From assembly GCA_044229445.1 (NCBI GenBank), contig JBGASX010000010.1:1106-65105 (forward strand): DNA of 64,000 bases, read 5' to 3'. Source of the stretch: Gemmatimonadales bacterium. GTDB lineage: Bacteria; Gemmatimonadota; Gemmatimonadetes; Gemmatimonadales; GWC2-71-9. This document shows, piece by piece, positions 40,968 through 56,138 of the stretch. The translations under genes and the position numbers were made by a program. The notes beneath the pieces were generated by a model, which was not told the DNA's origin, searched no databases, and saw only the letters and a list, made by a program, of their open reading frames with translations. Within the stretch, counting starts at the first letter, position 1; each line of letters opens with the position of its first letter.

Positions 40968-41740
40968 TGCCGTTGCGCCGCCCGCGGGGAACGGGACGGG
41001 AGCGCGGGCTGCTGTCGACGATCGCCGGACGGCGATTCGTCAAACAGGCCGGGATTGTCGCCGCCATGTTCCTGGTCGGCTATCTCGTCACCATCTTCTG
41101 GCTCTTCCCCGCACCGCTCATCCGGAAGGAGCACGCCGTCCCCCGCGTCATCGATGTCGGGGCGACGGAGGCCAGGCAGCGGCTCGAGGCACAGGGATTC
41201 CGGTTGCGGATCGAAGATCAGCAATCCGACCCCGGCGCCCCCAAGGGAACGGTCATCTGGCAGGATCCGCCACCGGGCGTCGTGATGCCGCCCAACAGCC
41301 AGATCGCTCTGATCGTCAGCGACGGCCCGCCCGATGTCCCGGTCCCCGACGTCGCAAGCTTTCCGCGGGCACTGGCCGAGCGGGTGCTTCGGGCGGCCGG
41401 CTTCACCGTGGGTAGAGCGGACACATTGCCGGCGGCGACCGAGGCCGGCATCGTGGTCCAGAGCCGACCCAGCCCCGGCGTCGGGCGCGCGGCGGGCACC
41501 CCCATCGATCTGGTGATAAGTTCGGGGCCGGCCGAGCTGACGATTCCCTCGCTGGTGGGACTGTCCCTGGCCCAGGCGCGGGAACAGATCGAAGCGCTCG
41601 GCCTTGTCGTCGGAGCCACGGGTGGCCGAGTCGTGCCAGGCCGCCCCGAAGGGCTGGTACTGGAACAGCGTCCGCAAGCGGGAACTCGAAGTCCCCGCGG
41701 CGGTAGAGTCGACCTCGTCGTGACCAGAAAGGGAAACTGA
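40967..41740 (+). CDS. Membrane-anchored protein with three PASTA domains
   Basis: One TM helix, then three VP.V.G/QxPxPG repeats. Confidence 0.85.
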   Translation: MPLRRPRGTGRERGLLSTIAGRRFVKQAGIVAAMFLVGYLVTIFWLFPAPLIRKEHAVPRVIDVGATEARQRLEAQGFRLRIEDQQSDPGAPKGTVIWQDPPPGVVMPPNSQIALIVSDGPPDVPVPDVASFPRALAERVLRAAGFTVGRADTLPAATEAGIVVQSRPSPGVGRAAGTPIDLVISSGPAELTIPSLVGLSLAQAREQIEALGLVVGATGGRVVPGRPEGLVLEQRPQAGTRSPRGGRVDLVVTRKGN

Positions 41741-42405
41741 TGGCCGTCCGTATTGCCCCAAGCATCCTCGCGACCGACCTCGGTCGGCTGCGCGAGCAGG
41801 TGGAGGCCGCGCTCGCCGGCGGCGCCGAATGGCTGCACATCGACGTGATGGATGGCCGCTTCGTGCCGAATCTCACGTTTGGCGCCCCTGTCATCCGGGC
41901 CCTGCGTCGCTTCACCGAAGTCCCGCTTGATGTCCACCTGATGGTGGTGGAGCCCGAACAGTACATCGCGGAGTATGCCGACCTGGGCGTGAACGTGTTC
42001 ACCTTTCACCCCGAGGCGACCACCCACGTACAGCGCCAGCTGGCGCAGATCCGCGCCCGGGGCATGGCCGCCGGCCTCGCGCTCAATCCGGCGAGCCCGC
42101 TGAGCCTGGTGGAAGAGGTGCTCGACGATCTCGACCTGCTGCTCATCATGAGCGTCAATCCCGGATTCGGCGGCCAGTCCTACATCCCCGCCGCCACCTC
42201 GAAGATTGCCCGGGCGCGGGCGATGCTCGATCGGACCGAGACCCGCGCGGCCCTCGAGGTCGATGGCGGCATCACGGTGGACACCATCGAGGCCGCTTGG
42301 CGGGCCGGGGCAGACACCTTTGTCGCCGGCACGGCCGTCTTCGGCCAGCCGGACATCGCCGGAGCGGTCCGTGCGCTGACGCGCTGCTGCACCGTGAAGG
42401 TGTAA
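41740..42405 (+). CDS. rpe: Ribulose-phosphate 3-epimerase
   Basis: IAPSIL, HIDVMDGRFVPNLTFG, MSVNPGFGGQ, EVDGGI. Confidence 0.97.
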   Translation: MAVRIAPSILATDLGRLREQVEAALAGGAEWLHIDVMDGRFVPNLTFGAPVIRALRRFTEVPLDVHLMVVEPEQYIAEYADLGVNVFTFHPEATTHVQRQLAQIRARGMAAGLALNPASPLSLVEEVLDDLDLLLIMSVNPGFGGQSYIPAATSKIARARAMLDRTETRAALEVDGGITVDTIEAAWRAGADTFVAGTAVFGQPDIAGAVRALTRCCTVKV

Positions 42406-42408
42406 CCG

Positions 42409-43005
42409 ATGTCGAAACAGTGGGTCCTGGTTCTGGCCGTGCTCGCCGGCCTCCTCATCGGAGGGACCGCGCTCGTCTTCTATGGCCCCGAGGTGCAGCC
42501 CGTCGCCGTCGGCAAGGAGGCTCCGGACTACACGGCCATGAATCTGCAGTCCGGCGACAGCATCGCGCTCCGGACGCACTACCGGGGGCACGTCACCCTC
42601 GTCAACATCTGGGCGACATGGTGCGTGCCCTGCCGCGTCGAGATGCCGGCGATGCAGCAGCTGTACGACTCCCTCTCCGGCCGAGGGTTCCGGATTGCCG
42701 CGGTGAGCATCGATCAGGAGGGGCCCGAAGTCGTCAGGCAGTTCGCGGGCGAGCTGAAACTGACGTTCGATGTCCTCCAGGATCGGAGCGGCAACATCCA
42801 GCAGGCGTACCAGACGACGGGCGTCCCGGAGAGCTTTCTGCTGGACAGCAACGGCGTGATCATGAAGCGGGTCATCGGCGCCCATGACTGGGCCTCCGCC
42901 GCCGACCGCGCCCTGATCCGACGCCTGCTCGGCGATGCCGGGCCCGCGTCGACTCCGCTGCAGGATCGGGCGCCGGCAGATTCCGTCCCCGCCACGGGGC
43001 GATGA
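42409..43005 (+). CDS. TlpA/ResA-family thiol-disulfide oxidoreductase
   Basis: N-terminal TM; VNIWATWCVPCRVEMP; GVPESFLLD. Confidence 0.9.
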   Translation: MSKQWVLVLAVLAGLLIGGTALVFYGPEVQPVAVGKEAPDYTAMNLQSGDSIALRTHYRGHVTLVNIWATWCVPCRVEMPAMQQLYDSLSGRGFRIAAVSIDQEGPEVVRQFAGELKLTFDVLQDRSGNIQQAYQTTGVPESFLLDSNGVIMKRVIGAHDWASAADRALIRRLLGDAGPASTPLQDRAPADSVPATGR

Positions 43006-44060
43006 TCCTCCTCGCCATCGAAACATCGTGTGACGAGACTTCCGCCGCGATCCTCCGGTGCGGCAGCGGTCCCGTCGCGCTTTCCAGCCTGGTGATCCTC
43101 TCGCAGGACATTCACCGGATCTTCGGCGGCGTGGTGCCGGAACTGGCGAGTCGCGCCCATCTCACCACACTGGGCAGTGTCGTCGATCAGGCCCTCGTCG
43201 AGGCCGGCGTGAGGCTTCCGGAGGTGGAGGGCGTCGCGGTCACGGCAGGCCCCGGTCTCGTCGGGGCTCTGCTGGTCGGCGTCATGTACGGAAAGACGCT
43301 CGCCCGGCGGCTGAACGTGCCCCTCCTGGGGGTCCACCACCTCGAAGGGCACCTCTTCGCGGCCACGCTGGAAGATCCCGACCTCCAGCCGCCATTCATC
43401 GCCCTGCTGGTGAGCGGCGGACATACCATGCTGCTCGACGTGGCCGCGTGGGGCCAGTACCGGCTGCTCGGAACGACTCGCGACGATGCAGCCGGGGAAG
43501 CGTTCGACAAAGTGGGTACACTGCTCGGGCTCCCCTATCCCGGGGGACCGGAGATCGAGCGGCTCGCCGCGACGGGGCGCCCAGGCCGGTACAAGTTTCC
43601 CCGTCCGATGCTTAACACGCTCCAGGAAGACGGCCCGGATCGCTTCAGCTTTTCCTTCTCGGGGCTGAAGACGGCCGTCCTCCGGGCGGTCCAGTCCAGC
43701 GACGACCTCGAGCGGGACCGTGCCGATCTGGCCCGTGCCTTCCAGGACGCCGTGCTCGCAGTCCTCGTGGAGAAGGCCTACGCCGCGATGAGTGACCTGG
43801 GATACTCCACGCTCGTCATCGGCGGGGGGGTGGCGTGCAATCGTGCGCTCGCCGCACTGGCGAAGACCCGGGTCGACAGTGCAGCCCGCGTCGTGGTTGC
43901 CTCGAACCGCCTCAACACCGATAATGCCGCGATGATTGGCGCCGCCGCCGCGTTCCGCCTGGCCCGCGGCGAACAGAGCGGCAGCGATCTCGAACCACGC
44001 GCAGACCTCCCCTTCCCCGGTCTCGTGTCCACTTCGGCCCCGGCGGGAACCGCCCGATGA
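43002..44060 (+). CDS. tsaD: tRNA N6-adenosine threonylcarbamoyltransferase
   Basis: IETSCDETS, GGVVPELASRAH, HHLEGH, DDAAGEAFDK, TDNAAMI. Confidence 0.96.
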   Translation: MILLAIETSCDETSAAILRCGSGPVALSSLVILSQDIHRIFGGVVPELASRAHLTTLGSVVDQALVEAGVRLPEVEGVAVTAGPGLVGALLVGVMYGKTLARRLNVPLLGVHHLEGHLFAATLEDPDLQPPFIALLVSGGHTMLLDVAAWGQYRLLGTTRDDAAGEAFDKVGTLLGLPYPGGPEIERLAATGRPGRYKFPRPMLNTLQEDGPDRFSFSFSGLKTAVLRAVQSSDDLERDRADLARAFQDAVLAVLVEKAYAAMSDLGYSTLVIGGGVACNRALAALAKTRVDSAARVVVASNRLNTDNAAMIGAAAAFRLARGEQSGSDLEPRADLPFPGLVSTSAPAGTAR

Positions 44061-44887
44061 ACATCTACCCTCTGATCTTCAAGCTGGGTCCCCTCGAGAT
44101 CACCGGTTACGGCATCATGATGATGGTCGGCTTCCTGATGGGAGGCTGGCTGATCACCCTCGAACTCAGGCGTCGCGGCCTCTACGAGGAGTACGCGGCC
44201 GACATCACGGTGGCCGCCGTTGTCGGGGGCATCGTCGGCGCCAAGCTCTGGTACTGGGTCCTCAACGGCGGCAGCCTCTTCTCCCGAGGCGGACTGGTGT
44301 GGTATGGCGGGTTCGTGGGGGGCTTCCTCGCGGTCATGCTCAATGGCTGGCGGCTGAAGGTCCCCATCCGGTGGACCTTTCACCTGTGCGCTCCCGCACT
44401 CGCCGCGGCCTACGCCCTTGGCCGGATCGGGTGTTTCATCGTCAATGATGATTACGGCCACCCCACCACCCTCCCGTGGGGCGTGAAGTTTCCCCAAGGA
44501 CTGCCACCGTCCACCGCGCTGAATCTCCAGGAGCAGTTCGGCATTCCGATGGCACCCGGCACGGACCCTGCCACAGTGCTGGCCGTCCACCCGACCCAGC
44601 TCTATGAAGCGACGCTGATGCTGATCGCGTTTGCCCTGCTGTGGCGGCTGCGACTGCGGGCGCGCCCGACCGGCTGGATCTTCGGCATTTACCTGATTTG
44701 TGCAGGGGTGGAGCGGTTTCTCATCGAGATCGTAAGAGCAAAGGATGACAGGATCTTCGGCCCGCTGACGATCGCCCAGGCAGTGAGTATCGGGCTCGTG
44801 GCCGGCGGAGTCTTCCTGATGACAACGTTGGCGAAGAGCGAGGACATCGCCGCTGGCCCGTACCTGAACAAGGCAGCTGGCGGCTAG
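44057..44887 (+). CDS. lgt: Prolipoprotein diacylglyceryl transferase
   Basis: GGLVWYGG, GRIGCF, PWGVKFP, HPTQLYE, RFLIEIVR. Confidence 0.92.
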   Translation: MNIYPLIFKLGPLEITGYGIMMMVGFLMGGWLITLELRRRGLYEEYAADITVAAVVGGIVGAKLWYWVLNGGSLFSRGGLVWYGGFVGGFLAVMLNGWRLKVPIRWTFHLCAPALAAAYALGRIGCFIVNDDYGHPTTLPWGVKFPQGLPPSTALNLQEQFGIPMAPGTDPATVLAVHPTQLYEATLMLIAFALLWRLRLRARPTGWIFGIYLICAGVERFLIEIVRAKDDRIFGPLTIAQAVSIGLVAGGVFLMTTLAKSEDIAAGPYLNKAAGG

Positions 44888-44890
44888 CTC

Positions 44891-45003
44891 GGCGATTTCT
44901 TCCTGTCGGAACTTTATGCCGGAATATTTTGCCTGTTCCGGCATTTTTTGCCTATGGCGAAATATGGCGTTTTTGCCTAAGTGCTTTTTTGTGAGTCACT
45001 TAG
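44891..45003. promoter_or_regulatory. AT-rich upstream activator region: repeated GG(C/A)-N7-(G/T)CC boxes plus CTAAGTG-N13-CACTTAG inverted repeat (possible enhancer and IHF-like site)
   Basis: GGCGATTTCTTCC 44891, GGAACTTTATGCC 44908, GGAATATTTTGCC 44921, GGCATTTTTTGCC 44940, GGCGTTTTTGCC 44966; inverted repeat at 44977-45003. Lies about 40-155 bp upstream of the predicted sigma54 start. Confidence 0.6.
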
Positions 45004-45017
45004 CTGAATTGTGATAT

Positions 45018-45034
45018 TTGGCACACCGCCTGCT
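45018..45034 (+). promoter_or_regulatory. Sigma54 (-24/-12) promoter
   Basis: TTGGCACACCGCCTGCT versus consensus TGGCAC-N5-TTGCW; GG 45020-21 and GC 45032-33 are exactly 10 nt apart. Confidence 0.8.
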
Positions 45035-45044
45035 ATATGGGTGA

Positions 45045-45297
45045 AGTGAAGCGCTACGGCGCGATCGAAAAGTGGCGGGCCGAAGAAGAGTGGGGCGGAC
45101 ATCTCCGTTCGTTCCCGAAAAACTCAGGGGGCGGCCTGTCACCTCCCAGTGGCATCTGGAAACCGAATCAGGTGCCGAACAGAGTGGTAAGCCGAAGAAG
45201 AGTGGAGCGAACATCCGGTTCGCCTCCGTCCACAACTCAGGGGGCGGCTTGCCACCGCACGACGACAAAGGCCTGCCAAGTGGCAGGCCTTTGTCAT
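45045..45297 (+). ncRNA. Candidate structured small RNA with two tandem homologous domains (family not recognised)
   Basis: Lies between the sigma54 promoter and a terminator. 5' C(UACG)G hairpin 45051-62; domain 1 45072-45142; hairpin 45151-45176; domain 2 45184-45255. All non-canonical pairs are G-U on the + strand, and stems covary between the copies. Confidence 0.75.
45264..45295. terminator. Intrinsic terminator, probably bidirectional
   Basis: Perfect inverted repeat GACAAAGGCCTGCCA-AG-TGGCAGGCCTTTGTC between the convergent candidate ncRNA and the FTR1 gene; U-tracts are short. Confidence 0.8.
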
Positions 45298-45315
45298 TGT
45301 GATCGCTGCGGGCGT

Positions 45316-47454
45316 TCAGCGCGTGCGGGGCGACGACTTCTGGAGCATCCCCTTGAGCCGTTCCACCTCGGCGCGCAGCGCCGCAAGATCGGCGTCCATC
45401 CGGTCCAGCGACCGGATCATATCGGCCTCCAGGCGCATCGGTCGCTCAACGGGGATCGCCGATGAGAGCACGTCAGGTGCTTCGCTCCTCGCCGGGCCTG
45501 CAGCTTCCGGCACCAGCACGCTGGTGACGGCCAGCCGGCGTGGCTCGATCACGAACGTCCAGAGCAGGCCGGCGACGAACAGCACGAGCAGCACCACCTG
45601 CAAGGCAAGCGATTCCGCCGTCGGATAGATTCCGAGCGCCGGAATTCGGGGTGCCCAGGTGAGCACGGTCGTCCCGATCAGCCCGCCCTCCTGCAACTCC
45701 GCAATCCCCTTCCCGGCGAACACGAAGGCCATGTAATAGAGGAAGGCGCTCGTGAAACCGAAGAAGGGTTTGAGGGGGATCTTCACGCCCCACCGGTTGA
45801 TGCCGTAGTAGACCACTGCCAGAGAGATACCGCCGGCGAGCATGCCGAGCAGCACCGGCAGGATCGAGCCGGTGCCCGCCAGGAACAGCGCCTTGTAGAA
45901 CAGCACCGTCTCGAATCCCTCGCGGTAGACGGCGAGGAACGCCACCGATGCGAGGGCAAGCGCGGAACCGCTGGAGACGGCGTCCTGAACCCGTCCCTTC
46001 ACGAAGCGGTTCCACTTCGCCACCTCCATCTTCGACAGCAGCCAGTAGCTCACATAGAACAGCATCGCCGTCGCGACGAGCATCACTCCACCTTCGAGCG
46101 CCTCCTGGCTGGTGCGACCGACCTGAAAGATGGTCTCCAGCAGCAGGGCGGTCAGCAGACTCGCCCCGACCGCGGCACCGACGCCGATGTGGATGTCCCG
46201 GCGACGATGGCCCGCCCCGGTCTTCAGGAGAAACGCCATCAGGGCACCGACGACCAGTATGGCCTCCAGTCCCTCACGCAGAAGCAGGATGAACGACTGA
46301 AAGAAGAGGTTGAGGGGGGACAGCTGGTCCCCAATCGTCCGCTCAGCGTTCTCCAGATCGCTGAGCAGTCGAAGGTGGATGTCCCGCAGTTCGGCGGCGG
46401 TGGCGCCGCCGGCCGCACGGGTCCGGAGCGCGGCAAAATCCGCCTCGAGTCCGTCGGCAAGACCGGCGTTCTTCGCCCGCACACCGCGCTCGACCTTCTC
46501 GAAGGTCATGTAGGCGTCGAAGGCCGTTGAACTGGCGCGCTCCCCTTCCCCGGCGGCCGCATGCTCGAGAGCACTGTCGAGCTGGGACCGAACCGCCGTG
46601 AAGACCAGGGCCGCATCATCCGGGCGGGTTTCCGCGGTTCCAAAGGTGCGGACCGCCGCAATCCGGGCACGGACCTCCGGGGAATCAACGCCTTGTCCCG
46701 GCGCCATCGCGGCCGCCAGTTCGGCGTCCGTCATGCGGGCAGTGGCCGCAAATTCGCGGAGCGCCGCCGAGACCTCGCCGCGTGGCGCGGGGAGGCGGAG
46801 CAGTGTGGCATAAACGGCCGCGGCCCAGCGATCGTCGGCGCTCAGCCGGGTCTCGTAGGCCGGCATCGCGGTGCCGGCAACGCCGATGGTGGTGCGTCGG
46901 TAATAGTCGAGCGGAGAGACTGCGGTCAGCTTGCGAAAATCCGTGAGGTCGGCAGGCGGCGGCGTGAGCGTGGCGCCCGCCACTCCATCCCCCCGGCCGG
47001 CGGGCCCATGACAGCTCGCGCACTGCGACTGGAAGACTTCGGCTCCGCGGGTCAGGAGGGGCTGACGCACCGGTATCTCGTCGAGTGTCACGCCGAGCCG
47101 AGCGGCGAGGGCCTCCGCCAGCAGGCGCGATCGCAGCGCGACCGAGTCGGCCGGCGCGATACGCGCGACCATCGCGACCATCGAATCCAGGCCGGCGATG
47201 GCAAGCTTCGACGCGTCGGCCGGCAACAACCCGGCGGTTCGACGCGCCTCGCTCAGGAAGAGCTTCGCCTCTTCGACTTCCGCAGCCGCAACGACCTTAC
47301 CGGCCTGGACGCCGACGCCATATTCCTGGGCCGCCAGAGCGGTGGTCGCGGCGATCCGCCTCACGGCCGGGGCCTGATCACCCTGATCGGGAAGCGGAGT
47401 GGCCGGGCCTGCGAAGAGGCTCGAAAGCGCTGACGTCACCAAAATGAGAAACAT
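45316..47454 (-). CDS. Cytochrome c / FTR1-family iron permease fusion
   Basis: CASCH heme motif; REGLE and REGFE ion-transport motifs in a 7-TM FTR1 domain. Start is ATG 47454 or GTG 47439. Confidence 0.9.
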   Translation of the reverse strand: MFLILVTSALSSLFAGPATPLPDQGDQAPAVRRIAATTALAAQEYGVGVQAGKVVAAAEVEEAKLFLSEARRTAGLLPADASKLAIAGLDSMVAMVARIAPADSVALRSRLLAEALAARLGVTLDEIPVRQPLLTRGAEVFQSQCASCHGPAGRGDGVAGATLTPPPADLTDFRKLTAVSPLDYYRRTTIGVAGTAMPAYETRLSADDRWAAAVYATLLRLPAPRGEVSAALREFAATARMTDAELAAAMAPGQGVDSPEVRARIAAVRTFGTAETRPDDAALVFTAVRSQLDSALEHAAAGEGERASSTAFDAYMTFEKVERGVRAKNAGLADGLEADFAALRTRAAGGATAAELRDIHLRLLSDLENAERTIGDQLSPLNLFFQSFILLLREGLEAILVVGALMAFLLKTGAGHRRRDIHIGVGAAVGASLLTALLLETIFQVGRTSQEALEGGVMLVATAMLFYVSYWLLSKMEVAKWNRFVKGRVQDAVSSGSALALASVAFLAVYREGFETVLFYKALFLAGTGSILPVLLGMLAGGISLAVVYYGINRWGVKIPLKPFFGFTSAFLYYMAFVFAGKGIAELQEGGLIGTTVLTWAPRIPALGIYPTAESLALQVVLLVLFVAGLLWTFVIEPRRLAVTSVLVPEAAGPARSEAPDVLSSAIPVERPMRLEADMIRSLDRMDADLAALRAEVERLKGMLQKSSPRTR

Positions 47455-47459
47455 TCTCA
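47445..47459. promoter_or_regulatory. Fur-box-like operator
   Basis: TGAGAAA-C-ATTCTCA 7-1-7 inverted repeat at the 5' end of the iron permease gene. Confidence 0.65.
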
Positions 47460-47558
47460 ACCGATCTTGATTGACAGGAGTCAAACTACGGGGCGAGCAT
47501 CGGAATTGGAAGTACCGTCCCGATTCGGGCGCTCCACCGGCCTGCTAGCTTTCCAGAC

Positions 47559-49109
47559 ATGCCGACGATTCCAGCGATCGATCCAGCCACCGGGGCCGTC
47601 TTCGCCGAGACACCCGAGGCCTCCATGGCTGAGGTCGTGCTTGCCATGCAGGGTGCCAGGGCAGCGCAGCCGGGATGGGCCGCTCGCCCCCTCGCTGAGC
47701 GCCGGGCAATCATTGCGAACTTCCAGCGACTGCTCTACAGCCGCCGGCAGGAGATGGCCGAGCTGATCACCCGGGAGAACGGGAAGCCCCTGGGCGAGGC
47801 ACTTCTCACCGATGTCGCGGTCACGCTGGATCTGGCGCGGTTCTACCTCGCGGGGGCCGACTCGATCCTCCGGCCGCGGCGGATCCCGCATGGGAACATC
47901 GCCTTCCTGGGCAAGCGCGGCCGCCTGCACTGGGAGCCGCTGGGCGTGATCGCCGTCATCTCTCCCTGGAATTATCCGCTCCTGCTGCCCTTCGGGGAGC
48001 TGCTGCCCGCCCTGCTCTCGGGGAATGCCGTGCTCCTCAAGCCGAGCGAGTTCACGACGAGGACGGCGGCGTTCGGGATCGAGCTGCTGCATGAGGCCGG
48101 GGTGCCGCCTGCGGTCTGCCAGCTCGTCCCGGGAGCGGGGGAGGTCGGCGCCGCGCTCATCGCGGAAGCACCTGACAAGATCTTCTTCACCGGAAGCGCC
48201 CGCACCGGGCGGAAGGTCGCGGTCGCCGCGGCGGAGCGGTTCATCCCCGTCAGCCTCGAACTCGGCGGCAGCGACGCCTGCATCGTGCTGGCCGACGCTG
48301 ACCTCGAGCGTGCAGCCAGCGGCTCACTGTGGGCGCGATTCACCAACGGCGGGCAGACCTGTGTCGCCGCCAAACGAGTCATCGTCGAGCAGCCCATCTA
48401 CGATCAGTTCGTAACCGTGCTGGTCGAGAAGGTCCGTACCCTGATCGTCGGCGCGGGGGCGGAGCCGGGCGTGGACATGGGGCCTATGATCCGGGAAAGT
48501 CAGCTCGTCGAGTTGGAGCGGCAGCTCGCCGCCGCGACCGCCGCGGGAGCTACGATCCGGACGGGCGGCCGGCGCCGTCCCGACCTCGGTCCCACCTTCT
48601 TCGAACCGACGGTCGTCACCGACCTGCCGCTCGACTCGCCGCTGTGGCGCGAGGAGGTCTTCGGACCGGTCATGCCGGTGGTTCCCGCCCGGGACGCGGA
48701 GGACGCGCTGCGTCTCGCCAACGACTCCGCCTACGGGTTGTCTGGCAGTGTCTGGACCGGCGACCGGGATCGAGGAGTCGCGCTGGCGCGGCGGATCCAC
48801 GCGGGCGCCGTCCTGGTGAACGACGCCACCTGTCATGTCGGGATCGCCGAGGTCCCGCACGGGGGGGAAAGGGAGTCGGGGCTGGGACGAACGCATGGCG
48901 AGATCGGGCTGCTCGAGACCTGCCGTCCACGCTACGTCGGAAGCGATCTGCTGGACTGGATCCGGAAGCCCTGGTGGTTCGGCTACCATCACGAGAGCTA
49001 TGGCAACCGGGACGCCTTCCTGCGCTTCGCCTTCGCCCCGTCCCTGCTCGATCGGCTTCGGGCGGCCCCGAAGGCGCTCGGCCTGCTCTTCAACCGGCGC
49101 GCGGTGTAG
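47559..49109 (+). CDS. Aldehyde dehydrogenase family protein
   Basis: ISPWNYP, LKPSE, FTGS, LELGG, NGGQTCVA, EEVFGPV, YGLSGSVW. Confidence 0.93.
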   Translation: MPTIPAIDPATGAVFAETPEASMAEVVLAMQGARAAQPGWAARPLAERRAIIANFQRLLYSRRQEMAELITRENGKPLGEALLTDVAVTLDLARFYLAGADSILRPRRIPHGNIAFLGKRGRLHWEPLGVIAVISPWNYPLLLPFGELLPALLSGNAVLLKPSEFTTRTAAFGIELLHEAGVPPAVCQLVPGAGEVGAALIAEAPDKIFFTGSARTGRKVAVAAAERFIPVSLELGGSDACIVLADADLERAASGSLWARFTNGGQTCVAAKRVIVEQPIYDQFVTVLVEKVRTLIVGAGAEPGVDMGPMIRESQLVELERQLAAATAAGATIRTGGRRRPDLGPTFFEPTVVTDLPLDSPLWREEVFGPVMPVVPARDAEDALRLANDSAYGLSGSVWTGDRDRGVALARRIHAGAVLVNDATCHVGIAEVPHGGERESGLGRTHGEIGLLETCRPRYVGSDLLDWIRKPWWFGYHHESYGNRDAFLRFAFAPSLLDRLRAAPKALGLLFNRRAV

Positions 49110-49500
49110 CCGGCCCGGAGCGCACCAGAATCGCAACCGCACCCGCGGTCGCGTCGGAGTGCGAGAGCGACAGCTCGAAGTGCAGCGGCCCGTGGCGCTC
49201 CGTCAGGTCCTTTGCGAGCCCGGAGAGCGTCAGGAAGGGACGGCCCTCGGTCTCCCGCTGCACTTCCAGGTGGTGCCAGCTCACCGCTCTCGCGCCAGGC
49301 AGGATCTGCAGTGCCTTGTAGGCCGCTTCCTTGGCCGCGATGCGTGCGGCGATGTGCATGGCGGGGCGGTGGCGGCCCACCACGTAGACGCGCTCGCCCT
49401 CGGTCAGGAACCGGGCGAGGACCCGGTCACCGTGGCGGAGCAGCATCCGCTCCACGCGGGCGATATCGACGAGATCGATCCCTACCCCGATCAGTTCCAC
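49090..49500 (-). CDS. acpS: Holo-[acyl-carrier-protein] synthase
   Basis: IGVGIDLVDIAR, AARIAAKEAAYKA, LSLSHS. Confidence 0.93.
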   Translation of the reverse strand: MELIGVGIDLVDIARVERMLLRHGDRVLARFLTEGERVYVVGRHRPAMHIAARIAAKEAAYKALQILPGARAVSWHHLEVQRETEGRPFLTLSGLAKDLTERHGPLHFELSLSHSDATAGAVAILVRSGPATPRAG

Positions 49501-50246
49501 GCAGCCCAGATCCTCTCCACCATCCCTGACAACGGTCCCGGTACGGGCAGGTACCCGCCGAGCACCAGTCCGAAGTAGCTCGCGATCGCGAGCACGAGAA
49601 CGCCGATGGCGACAAGGGGCCAGAGCGGGCGACGCCAGGCCCGGACCTCCTCCACTTCCGCCCCCCAGGTCCGCCACTCCTCCCGCAGCACCTCCTCCAG
49701 CGCCAGCCACGCCGCTTCGAGGCGCCGCGCACTCGCCAGGAGGGCGGCCTGCCACTCGTGGACCGCGGTCAGCGGGGCCCGTTCGCTGCGCGCGGCGGGG
49801 GCGAGCTGATCGAGGGTGACGAGACTCTCACGAAGCGGCTGGCTACCGCGATCGAGGCGGGCCGCCAGTGCACGCACTTCGGCCGCATCGAGGGGGAGAT
49901 GCCGGGCGTAGCGCGCCGGCAGGCGCGACTCCCGGGCGGCGGCGAGCATGCGATCACTGATCGCCGCGGCGGCACGCTCGGCCACCGACTCCACCGCACT
50001 GCCCCACGCGGTATCCCAGGCCGCGCCATTCAGCGTGGCGAGCGCAAGCTCGCGGTCGCCCTCGCGCGCCCAGCGCCGGGCATCTCCGGCGAGTTCGAAG
50101 AGCTGGGAGACCAGAGCGACACGAATGTCCTCGAGTCCGATCCAGTGCAGGGAGCCTTGCGCGGCAGGCGTGGGCACGATGAGCCGGCCGAGCGAGGGGC
50201 CGAGCTCGGGAATCTCCAGCACTGTCCTGGTCGAGGGCGACGTCAT
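49491..50246 (-). CDS. Hypothetical helical protein with a C-terminal membrane anchor
   Basis: Overlaps both neighbours in operon fashion; hydrophobic C-terminal helix. Confidence 0.7.
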   Translation of the reverse strand: MTSPSTRTVLEIPELGPSLGRLIVPTPAAQGSLHWIGLEDIRVALVSQLFELAGDARRWAREGDRELALATLNGAAWDTAWGSAVESVAERAAAAISDRMLAAARESRLPARYARHLPLDAAEVRALAARLDRGSQPLRESLVTLDQLAPAARSERAPLTAVHEWQAALLASARRLEAAWLALEEVLREEWRTWGAEVEEVRAWRRPLWPLVAIGVLVLAIASYFGLVLGGYLPVPGPLSGMVERIWAAWN

Positions 50247-50839
50247 GCGGCGCTCCAGGCGGGGGGTTCGTCACCGAGCGCCGCCTCACACAGCACCGCG
50301 GGCCGCCCGGTTCGCGTCGCATACCGGGCGGCGAACTGCACCAGCGCGTCGGCGACGCAGCTCTCGCGCGGCAATCCGGCGATGCCGATCAGCTGCTCGA
50401 TGCCGGCAGGCGTCCCTTCGATCTCCATCAGCACATCCATGCGCGGGTACCACTCCAGCCTGGCCACCGTGCCCGAAATGCGATACACCTCGACGTACCG
50501 ATCGATGGCGTGCGTGATGCCGTAGCCCAGCGACTCGAGCAGGCGCAATGCGCCAGCGCCGTCACCTGCCACCACCTCGATCTCCTCGCGCTGCTTGTAG
50601 CCCTCGGGGCTGACCGCCGTCGGGCCCTTCCAGCCGATCTCGGCGTGCTCCGGACCCTCCTCCGGGATCCACCGGCGGAGCCGCAGCACCTGGTCGCGCC
50701 GCTCGAGCTCGCCGTCTCGATCGAGGCGACGGTCGCGCAGCATGCCTCGGAAGCTTCGCAGCGCCCCGGCCGCGAGCAGCCGCCGACGGATCGCGGCGGG
50801 ATCGGCGACGACCGCCTTCACTTCGAGTTCAGTCGCCAA
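50243..50839 (-). CDS. CYTH-domain protein (class IV adenylate cyclase / triphosphate tunnel metalloenzyme)
   Basis: ELEVK (ExExK), LRLRR, WKGP, REEIE, MEIEG; TTG start inferred. Confidence 0.85.
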   Translation of the reverse strand: MATELEVKAVVADPAAIRRRLLAAGALRSFRGMLRDRRLDRDGELERRDQVLRLRRWIPEEGPEHAEIGWKGPTAVSPEGYKQREEIEVVAGDGAGALRLLESLGYGITHAIDRYVEVYRISGTVARLEWYPRMDVLMEIEGTPAGIEQLIGIAGLPRESCVADALVQFAARYATRTGRPAVLCEAALGDEPPAWSAA

Positions 50840-51533
50840 GGATGGCCTCGAGCACCCGCGGCGTGTCACTGAGGTCGACGAACGCCGCATGCGCGCCGGC
50901 CTCCTCGAGAGAACTCAGCGGATAGGCTCCGGTCGCTACACCGATGGCGCGGGCTTCGATGCCCCGACCGCAGGTGACATCCGCGGGGGTGTCACCGATG
51001 ATGACGACTTCGCGGCCGCGGGGTTCGCGTCCGAAGTGGGGCACCGCGCGCCGTGCCGCGATCGCCGGCAGATCGGGGCGGTGCGAGGAATCGGATCCGA
51101 AGGCCCCGACGCGGAAGCGGGCGGGCTCGATCGCCGCGGCCAGGAGCTTGAGCCCGGCCCCCTCGCGCATGTTGCCGGTGAGGAGACCGAGCACCACATC
51201 AGGCTCCTGCTCGAGCGCATCGAGCAGCTCGGGAATGCCGGGCATGACGGTCGTGAGCGAGCGGGGCTGCCGCAGTTCCTCTTCCAGCAATGCGAGGTAG
51301 CGTCCGCAGAGTTCCTGGATGAACCCCGCGTCCCCCGCGCCTGCATGGCCGGTGGCCTCGAGCAGCTCCGCGACGATCTGCGGGTCGGTCTTCCCGTCGA
51401 ACCGGACCCGTTCGAACGCGTCGTTGATGTCCACATGGCTGGCGAGCGCCGCCGTGATGGCGCGCCGCCCCGCCCCCGCCGTCAGCAGGAGCGTTCCGTC
51501 GATATCGAACAGCACGAGCGTGGATGCCACCAT
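50829..51533 (-). CDS. HAD-family hydrolase
   Basis: LFDIDGTL, LLTGN, IIGDTPADV. Confidence 0.9.
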   Translation of the reverse strand: MVASTLVLFDIDGTLLLTAGAGRRAITAALASHVDINDAFERVRFDGKTDPQIVAELLEATGHAGAGDAGFIQELCGRYLALLEEELRQPRSLTTVMPGIPELLDALEQEPDVVLGLLTGNMREGAGLKLLAAAIEPARFRVGAFGSDSSHRPDLPAIAARRAVPHFGREPRGREVVIIGDTPADVTCGRGIEARAIGVATGAYPLSSLEEAGAHAAFVDLSDTPRVLEAILGD

Positions 51534-52545: not shown

Positions 52546-53892
52546 TCAGGTCGTGATGGCGTACCGCTTGATCTTGTTGATCAGCGTGGCGCGCGAGATA
52601 CCGAGTTCCTGTGCCGCGCGGGTCCGGTTGCCGACATGGTGGCGCAGCGTGCGCTCGATGTGAGCCCGTTCGAGTTCGTCGAGCGTCATCGGCGTGTGGC
52701 GGCGATCGCCGGGCCCGGGCCGATTGCGGAAGTCGCCGGGCAGATGCTCCAGCCCGACGAGCGGCTGGCCGCGCGAGAGGATGAGCGCCCGCTCGAGGAC
52801 ATTGCGCAGCTCGCGGGTGTTGCCGGGCCAGGGGTGCGAGAGGAGGCGTTCGAGCGCCTCGGGACCGATCGCCGGCGCAGCGCCGGTGACCTCCCGCTGC
52901 AGTTCGTTCACGAGAGTCAGCACGAGTGTCAGGCGATCCTCGCGACTCCGCTCGCGCAGGGCGGGCAGCAGCAGCGGCATCACGCTCAACCGGTACGCCA
53001 GGTCCTCCCGGAAGGTGCCGGCCTCCACCATCGCATCGAGATCGCGACTGGTCGCGGCGATGATCCGGACGTCCGCGGCCAGCTCCCGCACGCCGCCGAC
53101 GCGCCGGAAACTCCGGGTCTCGAGGAGGCGGAGCAGCTTGGGCTGCAGTTCCGCGGGCAGGTCACCGATCTCCGGCATGACGAGCGAACCGCCCTCGGCG
53201 GTCTCCACCAGGCCGGGCCGCCGCTCGCGGGCCTCCTGCTCACTGGCGCGTTCGGTCCCGAACAGTTCGGCATCGAGCCCCGCCGGCGTCTTGCCCCAGA
53301 TCTGGACCTCGACGAACGGTCCGGAGGCCCGCGGGCTGAGAGAATGGATCATCGCCGCCATCCAGCGTTTGCCGACGCCGGTCTCGCCCCGGAGCAACAC
53401 GGGGGTGCGCTCCGACAGCGCGATGAGTCCGACCTGCCGGCCGAGATCCTTCATCGCCGTCGAATCCCCGAGGGAATCGAGACCTTCGCCAGGGGTGCTC
53501 CGGAGGAGGAGGAGTTCGTTGAGACGGCGGAGCCGGACCTTGTCCGCCACCCGGGCGACTGCCGCCACCAGATGGCCCATGTCCACCGGTTTGCTGAGGA
53601 AGTTCTCGGCTCCGCGCTGCATCGCCTCGACCGCGGTCGAGACATCGCCATGTCCGGTGAGCAGGATGACGGAGGCGTTCCGCTCCTTGAAGCGAACCAG
53701 CGCATCGAGTCCGTTCATCCCCGGGAGGTGCAGATCGAGCACCACGACCTCCGGGTGCAAGCGATCGTAGGCCGCGAGACCGCTTTCGGCATTCAGTTCG
53801 CGCGAGACCTCATACCCCGCCCGTTCGAACACCATGCCCACGGTGCGCAGCACGTCCACATCGTCGTCGATGAGCAGCACGGAATCAGGCAT
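52546..53892 (-). CDS. NtrC-family response regulator with a degenerate AAA+ domain
   Basis: REC + GETGVGKR + WPGNTREL + HTH, but GAFTGA is replaced by ASEQEA and Walker B reads MPEIGD. Confidence 0.88.
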   Translation of the reverse strand: MPDSVLLIDDDVDVLRTVGMVFERAGYEVSRELNAESGLAAYDRLHPEVVVLDLHLPGMNGLDALVRFKERNASVILLTGHGDVSTAVEAMQRGAENFLSKPVDMGHLVAAVARVADKVRLRRLNELLLLRSTPGEGLDSLGDSTAMKDLGRQVGLIALSERTPVLLRGETGVGKRWMAAMIHSLSPRASGPFVEVQIWGKTPAGLDAELFGTERASEQEARERRPGLVETAEGGSLVMPEIGDLPAELQPKLLRLLETRSFRRVGGVRELAADVRIIAATSRDLDAMVEAGTFREDLAYRLSVMPLLLPALRERSREDRLTLVLTLVNELQREVTGAAPAIGPEALERLLSHPWPGNTRELRNVLERALILSRGQPLVGLEHLPGDFRNRPGPGDRRHTPMTLDELERAHIERTLRHHVGNRTRAAQELGISRATLINKIKRYAITT

Positions 53893-56137
53893 GGCCCGTC
53901 CTCGCAATCCTGGTAGGGTCCTTCGGTAGCCGGAAGGCGAATCGCGCGCCGCCCTCCGGCCTGTTCTCCCCGTGGATCTCCCCGCCATGCGCGCGGATGA
54001 TCCCGTGGGAAATCGAGAGTCCAAGGCCGGTCCCGTGTCCCTGTGCCTTGGTGGTGAAGAATGGCTCGAAGACGCGGGTGAGCGCGGCCTCCGGGATACC
54101 GGGGCCCTGGTCGAGCACCTCGAAGCCCACCCAGTCGCGATCCGACCAGGTGCGCACCGTGGCCGCCGGCGCCGCGCTGCCGGCCATGGCCTGGGCGGCG
54201 TTCATGAGCAGGTTGGTGATCACCTGGCGGATCTGGTCGGGATCGGCGGTCACCGCCGGCAGCGTCGGATCGAGTCCCAGGGTCCAGACGACGCCGTGCT
54301 CGGCGAGACCGGGCGTGGCGGCGAAGGTTTCCCGCGTGATCAGGTTGAGATGGGTGTCGCGCCGCTCGAGCGGCCGCAGCCGGGCGAAGGTCAGCAGCCC
54401 GGTCACGATCCGGCCGGCGCGCATCGCCTCGCCGCGCATGGTCTCGATGCCGGACGCGATCTCGCCGGGCAGCTGCGGGTCGATCAGGAGGGCCTGGGCC
54501 ATGGCGGCGATCCCGGCCAGCGGGTTGTTCAGCTCGTGGGCTGCGCCCGAGACCAGTCCGCCGAGCGCCACCATCTTCTCCGAGTGACTCAGGCGCTCGC
54601 GCAGCTCGATCTCCTCGGTCACGTCGCGCACGATCGCCAGCAGGGCGTGGAGGCCGCCGCGTTCTTCGACCGGAACGACGACGGCGTCCGCCTGACGGAG
54701 CGCACCGTCACCCCGCCGGAGCCGGAACATGAACTGCCGGCTTTCGCCCTGGAAGCTCCGGGCGAGTTCCGCTTCGACCCGGGACCAGTCCTCGGGGGCC
54801 ACGAAGTCGGCGAGCTGGGCGGTGGGGTTCGGGGCGGCGAGGCCGACCAGGCGGAACCCGGCGCGATTCACGGCGAGGAAGCGCCCCTCGCGATCGAGCG
54901 TCACGATGGCGAGCGGGGCCCGGTTGAAGAGCGCCCGGAACCGGCGCTCCGAGCGGCGCAGCGCCTCGGCGGCGAGCCGCTCGCGCGTGACGTCGCGCGC
55001 GACGGCAACCGCGCCGGTCAGCGTGCCCCGCTCCTCGAGCGGGGCGATGGAGACATCGGCGATGCGCATCGCTTCGCCCCGGCGCACGAGCGATTCATAG
55101 CGCCGGGGTGCGTGCGGCGCGGCGACCGCGGACGTTCCGGCTTCGTCCGGCAGCAGCGCCGTGAGCGTGCGCCCCAGCAGTTGCGGCACGGGGAGGCCGA
55201 AGAGCTCGGCGGCGGCGGCGTTGGCGAAGAGCACGCGACCGTCGGCGCCGGACAGCACGATGGCCTCCTGGGTCGTCTCCACCAGGCGGCTGTAGCGCGC
55301 CTCGAGCCGGACATAATGGGTCAGGTCGTCGAGGGCCACCACGAAGCCACCGTCCGCGCGAGGCGCGGCGGTCAGCACCATGTGCTGGCCCCTGATCGCA
55401 TCGAGAAAGACGCTCACCCGGTGACCGCGCGTCCGCGCCTGCGCGAGCGGATCCTGTTCCGGCTCCGGCCAGCGGCTGAAGAGCCGGGGGAGCGGGAGTC
55501 CCGGGAGGTCGGTCACTCCGACACCGGCCAGGTCCGCCACGAAGCGATTGGCCCGCTCGATCTGGCCGCCGCCATCCACCAGCGCGAGTCCGCTGCCGGT
55601 ACCGTCGAAGGCGGTCTGCCATTCCGTCTTGACGCGCACCAGGGTATCGAGGAGCCGCCGCATGCCGATCGCGAGCGAGGCCTGATCGGCAAAGGCGGAC
55701 GCGAGCAGGCGCTCGTCGGCCGAGTAGACCCGGGGCGCATCGTGGTAGAACGCGAGCCAGCCGATGACCCGCTCCTGGTAGATCAGCGGCAGCGCGGCGA
55801 CTCCCGCAAAGCCTTCCGCAAGGACGACGTCGTGAATCGGACTGGTGCGGTCCTCCCGCGCATCGGGCTGGAAATACGGATCACCGCGGAGTACGGTGCT
55901 CGAAGAATGGGCCTCGCGGAACCGGGCGCGCATCGAGGCGATGTACGCAGGCGAGAGACCGATGGCGACCGGCGCCTCGATGGAGGTCTGCTGTTCGTCG
56001 ATCAGGAAGATGCCGGCCCGCTGGGCCCCGAAGACCCGCATCCCCTCCTCGGCGGCCGCGGCCATTGCCCCCGCGGCATCGGGCGCGCGCGCCAGCAGAT
56101 GCGCGACGCGGCCGAGAGCGGCGACGGGGGTCGACAT
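53885..56137 (-). CDS. Cytoplasmic GAF-PAS-PAS-PAS sensor histidine kinase
   Basis: GAF and PAS-like repeats, AHELNNPL, NLLMNAAQA, DQGPGI, FFTTK..GTGLGL. Confidence 0.9.
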   Translation of the reverse strand: MSTPVAALGRVAHLLARAPDAAGAMAAAAEEGMRVFGAQRAGIFLIDEQQTSIEAPVAIGLSPAYIASMRARFREAHSSSTVLRGDPYFQPDAREDRTSPIHDVVLAEGFAGVAALPLIYQERVIGWLAFYHDAPRVYSADERLLASAFADQASLAIGMRRLLDTLVRVKTEWQTAFDGTGSGLALVDGGGQIERANRFVADLAGVGVTDLPGLPLPRLFSRWPEPEQDPLAQARTRGHRVSVFLDAIRGQHMVLTAAPRADGGFVVALDDLTHYVRLEARYSRLVETTQEAIVLSGADGRVLFANAAAAELFGLPVPQLLGRTLTALLPDEAGTSAVAAPHAPRRYESLVRRGEAMRIADVSIAPLEERGTLTGAVAVARDVTRERLAAEALRRSERRFRALFNRAPLAIVTLDREGRFLAVNRAGFRLVGLAAPNPTAQLADFVAPEDWSRVEAELARSFQGESRQFMFRLRRGDGALRQADAVVVPVEERGGLHALLAIVRDVTEEIELRERLSHSEKMVALGGLVSGAAHELNNPLAGIAAMAQALLIDPQLPGEIASGIETMRGEAMRAGRIVTGLLTFARLRPLERRDTHLNLITRETFAATPGLAEHGVVWTLGLDPTLPAVTADPDQIRQVITNLLMNAAQAMAGSAAPAATVRTWSDRDWVGFEVLDQGPGIPEAALTRVFEPFFTTKAQGHGTGLGLSISHGIIRAHGGEIHGENRPEGGARFAFRLPKDPTRIARTGHA

Positions 56138-56138
56138 C

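What the first reader, a model, noticed from the sequence alone, without database searches (positions are those of the whole stretch)
45018..45297. Stand-alone sigma54-driven structured ncRNA with two tandem covarying domains
Seen in sequence: a complete promoter-RNA-terminator unit with no credible ORF. A sigma54 promoter predicts +1 near 45045, followed by a C(UACG)G hairpin and two ~71-nt homologous domains separated by an 8-bp hairpin. Each domain is an 11-bp basal stem (GUGGCGGGCCG/CGGCCUGUCAC versus GUGGUAAGCCG/CGGCUUGCCAC), an invariant purine internal loop (AAGAA opposite AGGGGG), an invariant GAGU/ACUC stem, a 3' bulge, and an apical 9-bp stem with an AUC-starting loop. Stem differences between the copies preserve pairing (G-C to A-U, G-U to G-C, C-G to U-G), and the wobble pairs work only on the + strand, which matches the promoter orientation. 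Established: sigma54-dependent sRNAs exist (Qrr, GlmY, CrcZ, NrsZ, Myxococcus Pxr), but I do not recognise this fold as any of them. Inference: a previously undescribed regulatory RNA, either a bivalent protein sponge whose invariant loops are the binding sites or a precursor processed into two sibling sRNAs.
Basis: partly seen in the sequence, partly recalled or inferred. Interest (0 to 1): 0.9.

Follow-up and report, generated by a model that had tools for sequence, protein, structure and literature searches.

The report
New sigma54-driven small RNA in Gemmatimonadaceae
This is a real, previously uncatalogued small noncoding RNA gene with its own sigma-54 promoter and terminator, built from one or two copies of a strongly conserved 72-base folded module and found only in part of one family of soil and sludge bacteria; what it does is not yet known.

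Summary
Window 45019-45297 (+) is a promoter-RNA-terminator unit. It has TGGCAC-N5-CTGCT (+1 near 45045), a UACG hairpin, two 71/72-nt homologous modules (45072-45142, 45184-45255) split by a hairpin, and a 14-bp terminator.

Each module is an 11-bp P1, an invariant purine loop (AAGAA opposite AGGGGG), a GAGU/ACUC helix and a 9-10-bp apical stem with a 3' bulge.

- **Structure:** in 87 distinct homologous modules 98.3% of cells pair, and 14 of 24 pairs show compensatory changes.
- **Rfam:** no hit for the window or for 10 homologous loci.
- **Distribution:** an exact-motif scan of 185,579 species found 45 loci, all Gemmatimonadota MAGs. A covariance model found the RNA in about a quarter of Gemmatimonadaceae genomes sampled and in no other family of the phylum.
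- **Context:** it is usually a single locus per genome, between lgt and a convergent FTR1-cytochrome c gene.
- **Copy number:** most genera carry one module. The two-module form is a duplication seen mainly in this genus.
- **Expression:** sludge and wastewater metatranscriptome contigs from four studies match only the predicted RNA.

Function is inferred only. The most likely reading is a trans-acting RNA whose invariant loop binds a factor. It is a new RNA family of a known kind.

The parts
44900..44955 (+). Putative upstream activator sequence: an array of CCGG-centred repeats (TGTCGGAA, TGCCGGAA, CCTG, TTCCGGCA, then TTTTGCC), 65-120 bp upstream of the -24 element. It overlaps the terminator-like hairpin 44916-44944 that follows lgt.
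   Evidence: The blocks are conserved in an alignment of 29 same-genus upstream regions. An nhmmer profile of that alignment hits only this locus in the own genome, at E 1.4e-13 with the next hit at E 0.72. The hairpin was flagged. The function is inferred, not shown.
45019..45034 (+). Sigma54-type -24/-12 promoter TGGCAC-N5-CTGCT; predicted +1 near 45045.
   Evidence: Sequence. The strict motif TGGC[AT][CT]-N5-NTGC lies 41-64 nt upstream of P1 in 55 of 73 assessable unique homologous units. rpoN is present in the genome, along with 16 strong bEBP matches.
45051..45062 (+). 5' hairpin GCGC-UACG-GCGC.
   Evidence: MFE fold. Homologs have a hairpin of different sequence at the same place, seen by eye. 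It is too variable to align.
45072..45142 (+). Module 1: P1 (45072-82 / 45132-42), loop AAGAA (45083-87) opposite AGGGGG (45126-31), P2 GAGU/ACUC, apical P3 with loop AUCUCC, and a 3' bulge.
   Evidence: cmsearch 89.8 bits, E 3.1e-23. Covariation.
45143..45149 (+). Pyrimidine-rich linker CUCCCAG directly 3' of P1. With the end of P1 it reads CACCUCCC, which resembles an anti-Shine-Dalgarno sequence.
   Evidence: A C/U-rich tract follows P1 in homologs, by eye and not quantified. The resemblance to the 16S 3' end is recalled, not tested.
45150..45177 (+). Spacer hairpin between the two modules. It corresponds to the 5' hairpin of a duplicated unit of about 112 nt.
   Evidence: MFE fold. The module starts are 112 nt apart. 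Other two-module homologs have a hairpin of different sequence here.
45184..45255 (+). Module 2 (same architecture; P1 GUGGUAAGCCG / CGGCUUGCCAC).
   Evidence: cmsearch 84.3 bits, E 1.1e-21. Covariation.
45264..45303 (+). Intrinsic terminator: a 14-bp hairpin (45264-45295) with a U-rich tail. It reads as a hairpin on both strands and sits 13 nt beyond the stop (45316) of the convergent FTR1-cytochrome c gene, so it is probably bidirectional.
   Evidence: MFE fold. All 14 pairs are predicted and several covary in 23 homologs. A hairpin plus T-rich tail follows P1 in 74 of 75 unique units. The simple scanner did not flag it.

Best explanation
Window 45045 to about 45300 (+) encodes an independently transcribed small noncoding RNA of about 250 nt. 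It belongs to a family not in Rfam and restricted, as far as sampled, to part of the Gemmatimonadaceae.

**How it is made.** Transcription starts from an enhancer-dependent sigma54 promoter. That promoter is presumably switched on by an unidentified bEBP bound to the CCGG-repeat array upstream. Transcription ends at a strong hairpin terminator shared with the convergent gene.

**The functional unit.** It is a module of about 72 nt. An 11-bp stem and a 9-10-bp apical stem, whose sequences are free to covary, hold an invariant core in place. The core is the asymmetric all-purine loop (AAGAA opposite AGGGGG), the near-invariant 4-bp helix GAGU/ACUC and the two closing C-G/G-C pairs of P1. The ancestral RNA has one module. 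In this genus the hairpin-plus-module unit was duplicated in tandem.

**Proposed mechanism (inferred, not shown).** The RNA acts in trans. The invariant folded core is a recognition site for a cellular factor, most likely an RNA-binding protein that it titrates or recruits, less likely a small ligand. Two modules double the valency.

**What is shown:** the gene anatomy, the structure, the distribution, the copy-number variation and presence in RNA libraries.

**What is inferred:** sigma54/bEBP dependence in vivo, trans action and the binding partner.
For: **Gene anatomy**
- The promoter, hairpins, modules and terminator are in place.
- The strict -24/-12 motif sits at a fixed distance in 55 of 73 assessable unique units, with 4 more relaxed matches.
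- A terminator-like hairpin is present in 74 of 75 units.
- rpoN is present, and there are 16 strong bEBP matches.

**Structure**
- A1, 64 distinct modules: 97.2% paired, 14 of 25 pairs with double changes, 0 of 500 shuffles reach this, slid controls 29.5-47.6%.
- A2, 87 distinct modules: 98.3% paired, 14 of 24 pairs.
- Full-length alignment of 23 two-module RNAs: 24 of 54 pairs compensatory.

**Not coding.** Single-module lengths vary as 71:9, 72:20, 73:8, 74:7 and 75:5. The two invariant blocks therefore fall in different reading frames in different species.

**Recognition site rather than seed**
- Both strands of the loop are fixed, as are the flanking helical pairs: 26 invariant columns against freely covarying stems.
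- No extended complementary target was found in the genome.
- Hfq was not found in a genome 98.9% complete.

**Trans-acting.** In 93 of 110 loci held the next gene is the convergent FTR1-cytochrome c gene. These loci are not independent genomes.

**Expression.** Contigs from 4 RNA libraries of 4 studies match at 100% (45059-45242, 45073-45246, 45090-45241, 45046-45218). All lie inside the predicted RNA and none reaches into the promoter or upstream IGR.

**Discrete gain and loss.** Of 19 genomes without the RNA, at least 7 have lgt abutting the convergent gene, and one keeps only the 3' half of the module.
Against: - No binding partner is identified and no experiment exists.
- The invariant loops cannot covary, so their conformation is unknown.
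- P2 varies only by A-U to G-U (23 of 87). That is compatible with pairing but does not prove it.
- One genus (loci L112/L113) keeps the synteny, promoter, P1 and AGGGGG but replaces the 5' loop, P2 and P3. This weakens the idea that the whole two-strand core is needed and fits a single-strand seed (AGGGGG) better.
- A pyrimidine-rich, anti-SD-like linker follows each module, as in C-rich base-pairing sRNAs.
- The contigs do not show transcription, strand or ends, and DNA carry-over in the RNA libraries cannot be excluded.
- Ten of 73 assessable units have no recognisable promoter by my patterns, and 4 have a sigma70-like one.
- The nearby NtrC-type regulator is syntenic whether or not the RNA is present, so the activator is unknown.
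Confidence: 0.45

Rival explanations
1. It is a base-pairing sRNA. The exposed conserved stretches are antisense seeds that bind mRNAs without Hfq, for example at Shine-Dalgarno regions, as C-rich sRNAs of Firmicutes do. The candidate seeds are the pyrimidine-rich linker CUCYC after each module, the AGGGGG run and the apical loop. The folded module is a scaffold or stabiliser, and duplication gives two seeds.
For: - A C/U-rich tract follows P1 in nearly all homologs, by eye.
- With the end of P1 it reads CACCUCCC.
- The g58 variant keeps AGGGGG and P1 while losing the opposite strand of the loop.
- The architecture of a promoter, a 5' hairpin, an unpaired stretch and a strong terminator is that of classic sRNAs.
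- NrsZ shows that a sigma54-driven sRNA with repeated modules can work by pairing (PMC4253122, passages read).
Against: - The linker is less conserved than the internal loop.
- Helical pairs next to the loop are invariant, which a seed does not require.
- AGGGGG is enclosed between stable helices.
- No extended complementary site was found in the own genome: the exact 10-mer complement occurs 3 times outside the locus, which I judge near chance.
- Hfq was not found. This does not exclude pairing.
Confidence: 0.3
2. It is a precursor that is cut into module-sized sRNAs (NrsZ-like processing). This could hold together with either mode of action above.
For: - The modules are separated by a spacer hairpin, and copy number varies between species (1 or 2).
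- NrsZ has the same layout, including a conserved RpoN promoter and 1-6 modules (PMC4253122).
Against: - Most members have one module only, so processing cannot be the general point.
- RNA-library contigs run across both modules, but contigs cannot show ends.
- In g77-like genomes the two copies are separate transcription units, each with its own terminator.
Confidence: 0.1
3. It is a ligand-sensing, riboswitch-like element. Each module is an aptamer, and binding controls termination at 45264-45295. Read-through would make antisense RNA against the convergent FTR1-cytochrome c (iron permease) gene.
For: - The core is invariant and riboswitch-like, with covarying stems.
- Tandem aptamers are known; the glycine riboswitch is recalled as an example.
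- The convergent FTR1-cytochrome c gene is the neighbour in 93 of 110 loci held.
- In the window the terminator arms resemble the P1 strands (GGCCUGCC vs GGCCUGUC/GGCUUGCC), which would allow alternative pairing.
Against: - That resemblance is limited to some species of this genus. Other genera have unrelated terminator stems (GGCCCGYC...) and no evident antiterminator.
- The terminators are long and strong.
- Some loci have a different, co-directional downstream gene.
- No weak match to any riboswitch family was found.
Confidence: 0.07
4. It is not an RNA gene. It would instead be a small protein-coding frame (45037-45465), a 3'UTR of lgt, or a chance or repeat artefact.
For: An open frame of 142 aa exists in the window. 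Open frames are common in this GC-rich DNA: only 19 of 75 units have stops in all three frames.
Against: - Indels of 1-4 nt between the invariant blocks shift the frame between species.
- Substitutions follow base-pairing, not codons.
- The ATG at 45037 lies upstream of the predicted +1 and is absent in the closest homolog.
- Pfam finds nothing for this frame.
- The unit has its own conserved promoter downstream of lgt.
- It is a single locus per genome, so not a repeat element.
Confidence: 0.03

Closest known systems
NrsZ of Pseudomonas (sigma54/NtrC-dependent modular sRNA; PMC4253122, abstract and passages read)
   Same: Both have a conserved RpoN-type promoter. Both carry conserved structured modules separated by spacer stem-loops. 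Module number varies between species (NrsZ 1-6; here 1-2). Both sit in an intergenic region with a stand-alone terminator.
   Different: There is no sequence or structure homology and no Rfam hit. The NrsZ motif sits in a hairpin loop and pairs with rhlA, whereas here the invariant part is a two-stranded internal loop. nrsZ lies next to ntrC, whereas this gene lies between lgt and an iron-permease gene. The phylum is different. Processing is untested here.
GlmY/GlmZ, Qrr and other sigma54-dependent sRNAs of Proteobacteria (PMC3045617 and PMC10162802, seen as search listings and abstract starts only; details recalled)
   Same: These are enhancer-dependent sRNA genes with a UAS upstream of a -24/-12 promoter. 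GlmY acts by titrating a protein (RapZ), which is the kind of mechanism proposed here. Some relatives have sigma70 instead of, or overlapping, sigma54 promoters; this last point is recalled. Here one genus has a sigma70-like promoter.
   Different: The folds are unrelated and there is no Rfam match. The activator and partner are unknown here.
Protein-titrating RNAs CsrB/RsmZ and CrcZ (recalled)
   Same: They carry repeated short recognition elements on a structured scaffold, with copy number variable between species. A CsrA gene is present in the genome.
   Different: Those RNAs carry many GGA or A-rich motifs in hairpin loops or single strands. Here there are only 1-2 sites, of a different sequence (AGGGGG opposite AAGAA) and in an internal loop. 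Hfq, the CrcZ partner, was not found.
Orphan structured RNA motifs and riboswitch aptamers with tandem domains (e.g. nadA/NAD+-I, glycine; recalled)
   Same: They have an invariant internal-loop core held by covarying stems, in tandem homologous domains.
   Different: This RNA is not in a 5'UTR: the next gene is usually convergent. It has its own terminator. It gives no hit to those Rfam models.

Membership tests
Any Rfam 15 family | Score at or above the family's gathering threshold | tested here: not met
   There were 0 matches in the 64-kb window and 0 in 10 homologous loci, 31,062 bases. With E up to 10 on 44850-45450 there were 18 matches, all far below gathering. Most fall on the terminator hairpin. 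The best match over a module is Thr_leader at 21.8 bits against a threshold of 55.
Bacterial stand-alone sRNA gene (generic kind) | Own promoter | tested here: met
   The sigma54 -24/-12 motif is in the window and in 55 of 73 assessable units at a fixed distance. Four more are relaxed matches, 4 are sigma70-like and 10 have none found. This is a sequence prediction only.
Bacterial stand-alone sRNA gene (generic kind) | Intrinsic terminator, with no downstream gene in the same transcript | tested here: met
   The hairpin with a U-rich tail appears (74 of 75 units). The convergent gene lies downstream in 93 of 110 loci held.
Bacterial stand-alone sRNA gene (generic kind) | No conserved reading frame | tested here: met
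   Module length varies from 71 to 75 nt between the invariant blocks. There is no Pfam hit for the 142-aa frame.
Bacterial stand-alone sRNA gene (generic kind) | Transcript detected with defined ends and strand | tested here: inconclusive
   Identical contigs from 4 RNA libraries of 4 studies are confined to 45046-45246. Contigs give no ends, strand or proof of transcription.
NrsZ | RpoN promoter and repeated modules separated by spacer hairpins, with variable copy number | tested here: met
   compared with passages of PMC4253122. This shows it works like NrsZ, not that it is a member.
NrsZ | Conserved loop motif ACAGGCAG, the NrsZ fold, and location beside ntrC | tested here: not met
   No Rfam hit. 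The motif is absent from the RNA. The neighbours are lgt and the FTR1-cytochrome c gene.
Csr/Rsm-type sponge | Many GGA motifs presented in hairpin loops | tested here: not met
   By inspection, there are one or two modules and the invariant motif is AGGGGG in an internal loop. CsrA binding was not tested.
Riboswitch | Lies in the 5' leader of the regulated gene, with an expression platform of alternative pairing | tested here: not met
   The next gene is convergent in most loci. No conserved antiterminator was seen across genera.
Riboswitch | Binds a small ligand | not testable with these tools
   This needs in-line probing or ITC.

The most novel reading that the evidence does not exclude
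The 72-nt module is a new RNA fold in which the 3' bulge lets the apical stem fold back, so that its pyrimidine-rich loop docks on the invariant G-run of the internal loop. That fold would be the specific receptor for a protein or metabolite. The RNA would then be a dedicated, sigma54-induced antagonist or sensor, for example of CsrA or another global regulator, in a phylum where no such riboregulator is known.
Probability: 0.15. Interest if true: 0.8.

Novelty: new member of a known kind. Interest (0 to 1): 0.58.

Why it matters
My three full-text searches listed no paper describing a regulatory RNA in Gemmatimonadota (listings only). The phylum is common in soil and wastewater sludge.

This is a well-supported RNA family with an enhancer-dependent promoter and a very strongly conserved folded core. 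It shows clear gain, loss, duplication and promoter swapping within one bacterial family. It gives a concrete handle on sigma54 signalling and post-transcriptional control in this phylum. It also gives a compact motif (AAGAA / AGGGGG flanked by fixed pairs) to test for a protein or ligand partner. It is ready to be submitted to Rfam as a family.

It is not a new kind of system. Sigma54-driven, modular sRNAs are already known.

Tried and rejected

**Activator, own genome.** I looked for further copies of the upstream array to define a regulon.
- Simple CCGG patterns are uninformative in this GC-rich genome.
- A profile of the array hits only this locus.

**Activator, nearby regulator.**
- The NtrC-type regulator and kinase about 7 kb away lie within 8 kb of the RNA in 6 loci held.
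- Orthologs at E <= 1e-110 occur in 110 of 151 family genomes, including genera without the RNA, on the same contig as lgt.
- There is therefore no specific link.

**Activator, other genera.** A GTYRA-N4-6-TYRAC palindrome is upstream in only 9 of 31 loci. Half-sites average 2.55 against 0.85 in shuffles. This is a lead only.

**Antisense targets.** Complements of the invariant blocks show no exact extended site outside the locus.

**Loop docking.**
- Apical loops pair better with AGGGGG than shuffled loops do (mean 3.54 against 2.86; the highest of 200 shuffle means was 3.08).
- The G-run is invariant, so this cannot be tested by covariation.

**Stop-codon test.** Counting stops to test coding is uninformative here.

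**Weak model hits.**
- Those in G093 and G162 (L115, L114) lie in coding-like sequence outside the synteny, and I dropped them as false.
- With them removed, the family tally is 36 of 151 rather than 38.

**Simple scanner.** It found no sigma70 promoter and did not flag the terminator.

**Uncovered flanks.** The parts of the laid stretch without cover are not evidence of silence.

**Literature.** Three searches listed nothing on such an RNA. I saw listings and abstract starts only. Supplements were not consulted.

**Unpublished genomes.**
- G232 (locus L110) counts in the tally and was left out of all alignments and scripts.
- G073, G127 and G193 count in the tallies only.

Full report
**What is there.**
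- Promoter TGGCAC-N5-CTGCT at 45019-45034, with +1 near 45045.
- A GCGC-UACG-GCGC hairpin at 45051-45062.
- Two homologous modules at 45072-45142 and 45184-45255.
- A spacer hairpin at 45150-45177.
- A 14-bp terminator hairpin at 45264-45295.

The MFE fold reproduces this at -124 kcal/mol, z = -5.77, with 0 of 200 shuffles as stable. The opposite strand also folds well (z = -5.32). The strand is therefore set by the promoter, the U-tract and the many G-U pairs. I add up 175 of 2085 pair cells as G-U or U-G from the rows.

**It is not a known family.** Rfam 15 gives no match at gathering thresholds in the window or in 10 homologous loci. A permissive search of 44850-45450 gives only sub-threshold matches, mostly to the terminator hairpin. 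Three full-text searches listed no paper describing such an RNA in Gemmatimonadota (listings only).

**Homologs and distribution.**
- The own genome has a single locus.
- BLASTN finds it in 29 of 36 other genomes of the genus and in 0 of 24 genomes of two other families of the order.
- An exact scan for the two invariant 12-mers over one genome for each of 185,579 species returned 45 loci. All are titled Gemmatimonadota, Gemmatimonadales, Gemmatimonadaceae or Gemmatimonadetes MAGs.
- A covariance model of the module (R1) hits 38 of 151 sampled genomes of the family, in 21 of 78 genera.
- I dropped two weak hits as false and kept two diverged ones by synteny, leaving 36 of 151.
- In a phylum-wide sample, 27 of 71 genomes of this family hit. 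That tally includes one weak hit (G093) that I judged false and one unpublished genome (G232).
- Of 79 genomes from eleven other families, only one gave a marginal hit, at 24.6 bits.

**Structure.** The module is:
- P1 (11 bp);
- a loop AAGAA opposite AGGGGG;
- P2 GAGU/ACUC;
- P3 (9-10 bp, loop CA-YNYCN-G);
- a 4-8-nt A-rich 3' bulge.

On 64 distinct modules aligned by MAFFT, 97.2% of cells pair. Fourteen of 25 pairs show changes on both sides. No shuffle of 500 reaches any of the five measures. Sliding the partner by 1-3 columns drops pairing to 29.5-47.6%. RNAalifold predicts the same fold independently.

On 87 distinct modules from 75 loci, aligned to the model (which leans towards it), the figures are 98.3% and 14 of 24. 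P1 and P3 carry the covariation. P2 varies only A-U to G-U, in 23 of 87 sequences. Twenty-six columns are invariant in A1. These include both loop strands, P2 and the two inner pairs of P1. My extraction pattern forced part of that invariance. In the CM-derived set the only core variants are GAGU to GGGU and two singletons. A full-length alignment of 23 two-module RNAs recovers both modules and the terminator, with 24 of 54 pairs compensatory.

**Gene signals in homologs.** Results come from 75 unique units.

| Promoter class | Units |
|---|---|
| Strict -24/-12 motif, 41-64 nt upstream of P1 | 55 |
| Relaxed match | 4 |
| TTGACA-N16-18-TANNNT instead | 4 |
| No recognisable promoter | 10 |
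| Not assessable | 2 |

A hairpin with a T-rich tail follows in 74 of 75 units. The genome has rpoN and 16 strong bEBP matches.

Upstream of the promoter, the genus shares an array of CCGG-centred repeats. The array is unique in the genome and overlaps the hairpin after lgt. Other genera show a different, weaker palindrome signal.

**Evolution.**
- Outside the genus the RNA is about 150 nt with one module: promoter, variable 5' hairpin, GAAAAGUG, module, pyrimidine-rich linker, terminator.
- The two-module form is a tandem duplication of a hairpin-plus-module unit of about 112 nt.
- Some species of the genus have one module, of either subtype.
- One group has a sigma70-like promoter, two complete units in tandem and, in one genome, a third copy elsewhere.
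- One genus keeps the synteny, promoter, P1 and AGGGGG but has replaced the rest of the module.
- Synteny is strong: lgt is present in 105, tsaD in 99 and the FTR1-cytochrome c gene in 93 of 110 loci held. These loci are not independent genomes.
- Of 19 genomes without the RNA, none has the promoter motif. At least 7 have lgt abutting the convergent gene. One retains only the 3' half of a module plus the terminator.

**Expression.** Of 24 public runs listed as holding part of the stretch, 21 are on record as RNA; the 24 runs come from 12 studies. I laid four runs from four studies of sludge or wastewater metatranscriptomes. Each gave a 100% identical contig: 45059-45242, 45073-45246, 45090-45241 and 45046-45218. 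All lie within the predicted RNA. One run also had a lower-depth contig in lgt. Contigs cannot prove transcription, strand or ends, so this is a supportive hint only.

**Not coding.** Module length varies from 71 to 75 nt between the invariant blocks. Substitutions follow pairing. The 142-aa frame has no Pfam hit, and its ATG is not conserved in the closest homolog.

**Mechanism.** Nothing here measures function. Three points favour a folded recognition site, with a protein more likely than a ligand.
- Both loop strands and the adjacent helical pairs are fixed while the stems drift.
- Copy number varies, as in titrating RNAs.
- Hfq was not found, and no extended antisense target was found.

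A CsrA gene exists, but the motif is not a classic GGA hairpin.

The main rival is Hfq-independent base pairing through the pyrimidine-rich, anti-SD-like linker or the G-run. The g58 variant fits this rival better. NrsZ of Pseudomonas is the closest working analogue: RpoN promoter, modules with spacer hairpins, and 1-6 copies (PMC4253122). It is unrelated in sequence, fold and context.

The nearby NtrC-type two-component system is not specifically linked to the RNA.

**Verdict.**
- This is a new, well-supported RNA family of a known kind, with function still open.
- My confidence that it is a genuine ncRNA gene of an undescribed family is about 0.9.
- My confidence in the proposed factor-binding mechanism is about 0.45.

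Noticed in passing
window 52546-56350 (-): An NtrC-type response regulator (REC-AAA+-HTH_8) and a GAF/PAS histidine kinase form a pair about 7 kb from the RNA. Orthologs of the regulator lie near lgt in genomes both with and without the RNA. Many tblastn matches show a stop in the first ~40 residues, so the listed ORF start (TTG) is probably too far upstream.
   Followed up: partly
window 45316-47484 (-): This 722-aa protein fuses a cytochrome c domain to an FTR1 iron permease. Its C-terminal tail is conserved at the DNA level across genera, and its 3' end shares the RNA's hairpin terminator.
   Followed up: no
L122 (G162:C12:14830-16100), bases ~115-190: A decayed copy. Only the 3' half of a module (…GUAAACUCAGGGGGCG…) and the terminator remain directly after the lgt stop, with no promoter.
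   Followed up: partly
L100, L103, L048, L066, L044, L116, L117: One genus-level group has a sigma70-like promoter (CTTGACAGG-N17-TAGGTT) in place of the sigma54 one. It has two complete units in tandem, each with its own terminator. One genome has a third copy at another locus.
   Followed up: partly
L112 and L113 (G170, G104): An orthologous RNA in the same synteny keeps the sigma54 promoter, P1, AGGGGG and the linker. Its 5' loop, P2 and P3 are replaced by unrelated GC-rich sequence (38.9 bits to R1).
   Followed up: partly
window 44916-44944: The terminator-like hairpin after lgt is the same DNA as the TGCCGGAA…TTCCGGCA palindrome of the putative enhancer. It may serve both roles.
   Followed up: no
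window 47481-48092 (-), 48324-49142 (-), 49491-50890 (-), 41218-43026 (-): Several sizeable ORFs near the locus have no Pfam match. They may be unreal ORFs in GC-rich DNA or uncharacterised proteins.
   Followed up: no
own genome (G000): No Hfq match was found in a genome 98.9% complete. One CsrA and one RpoN are present.
   Followed up: yes
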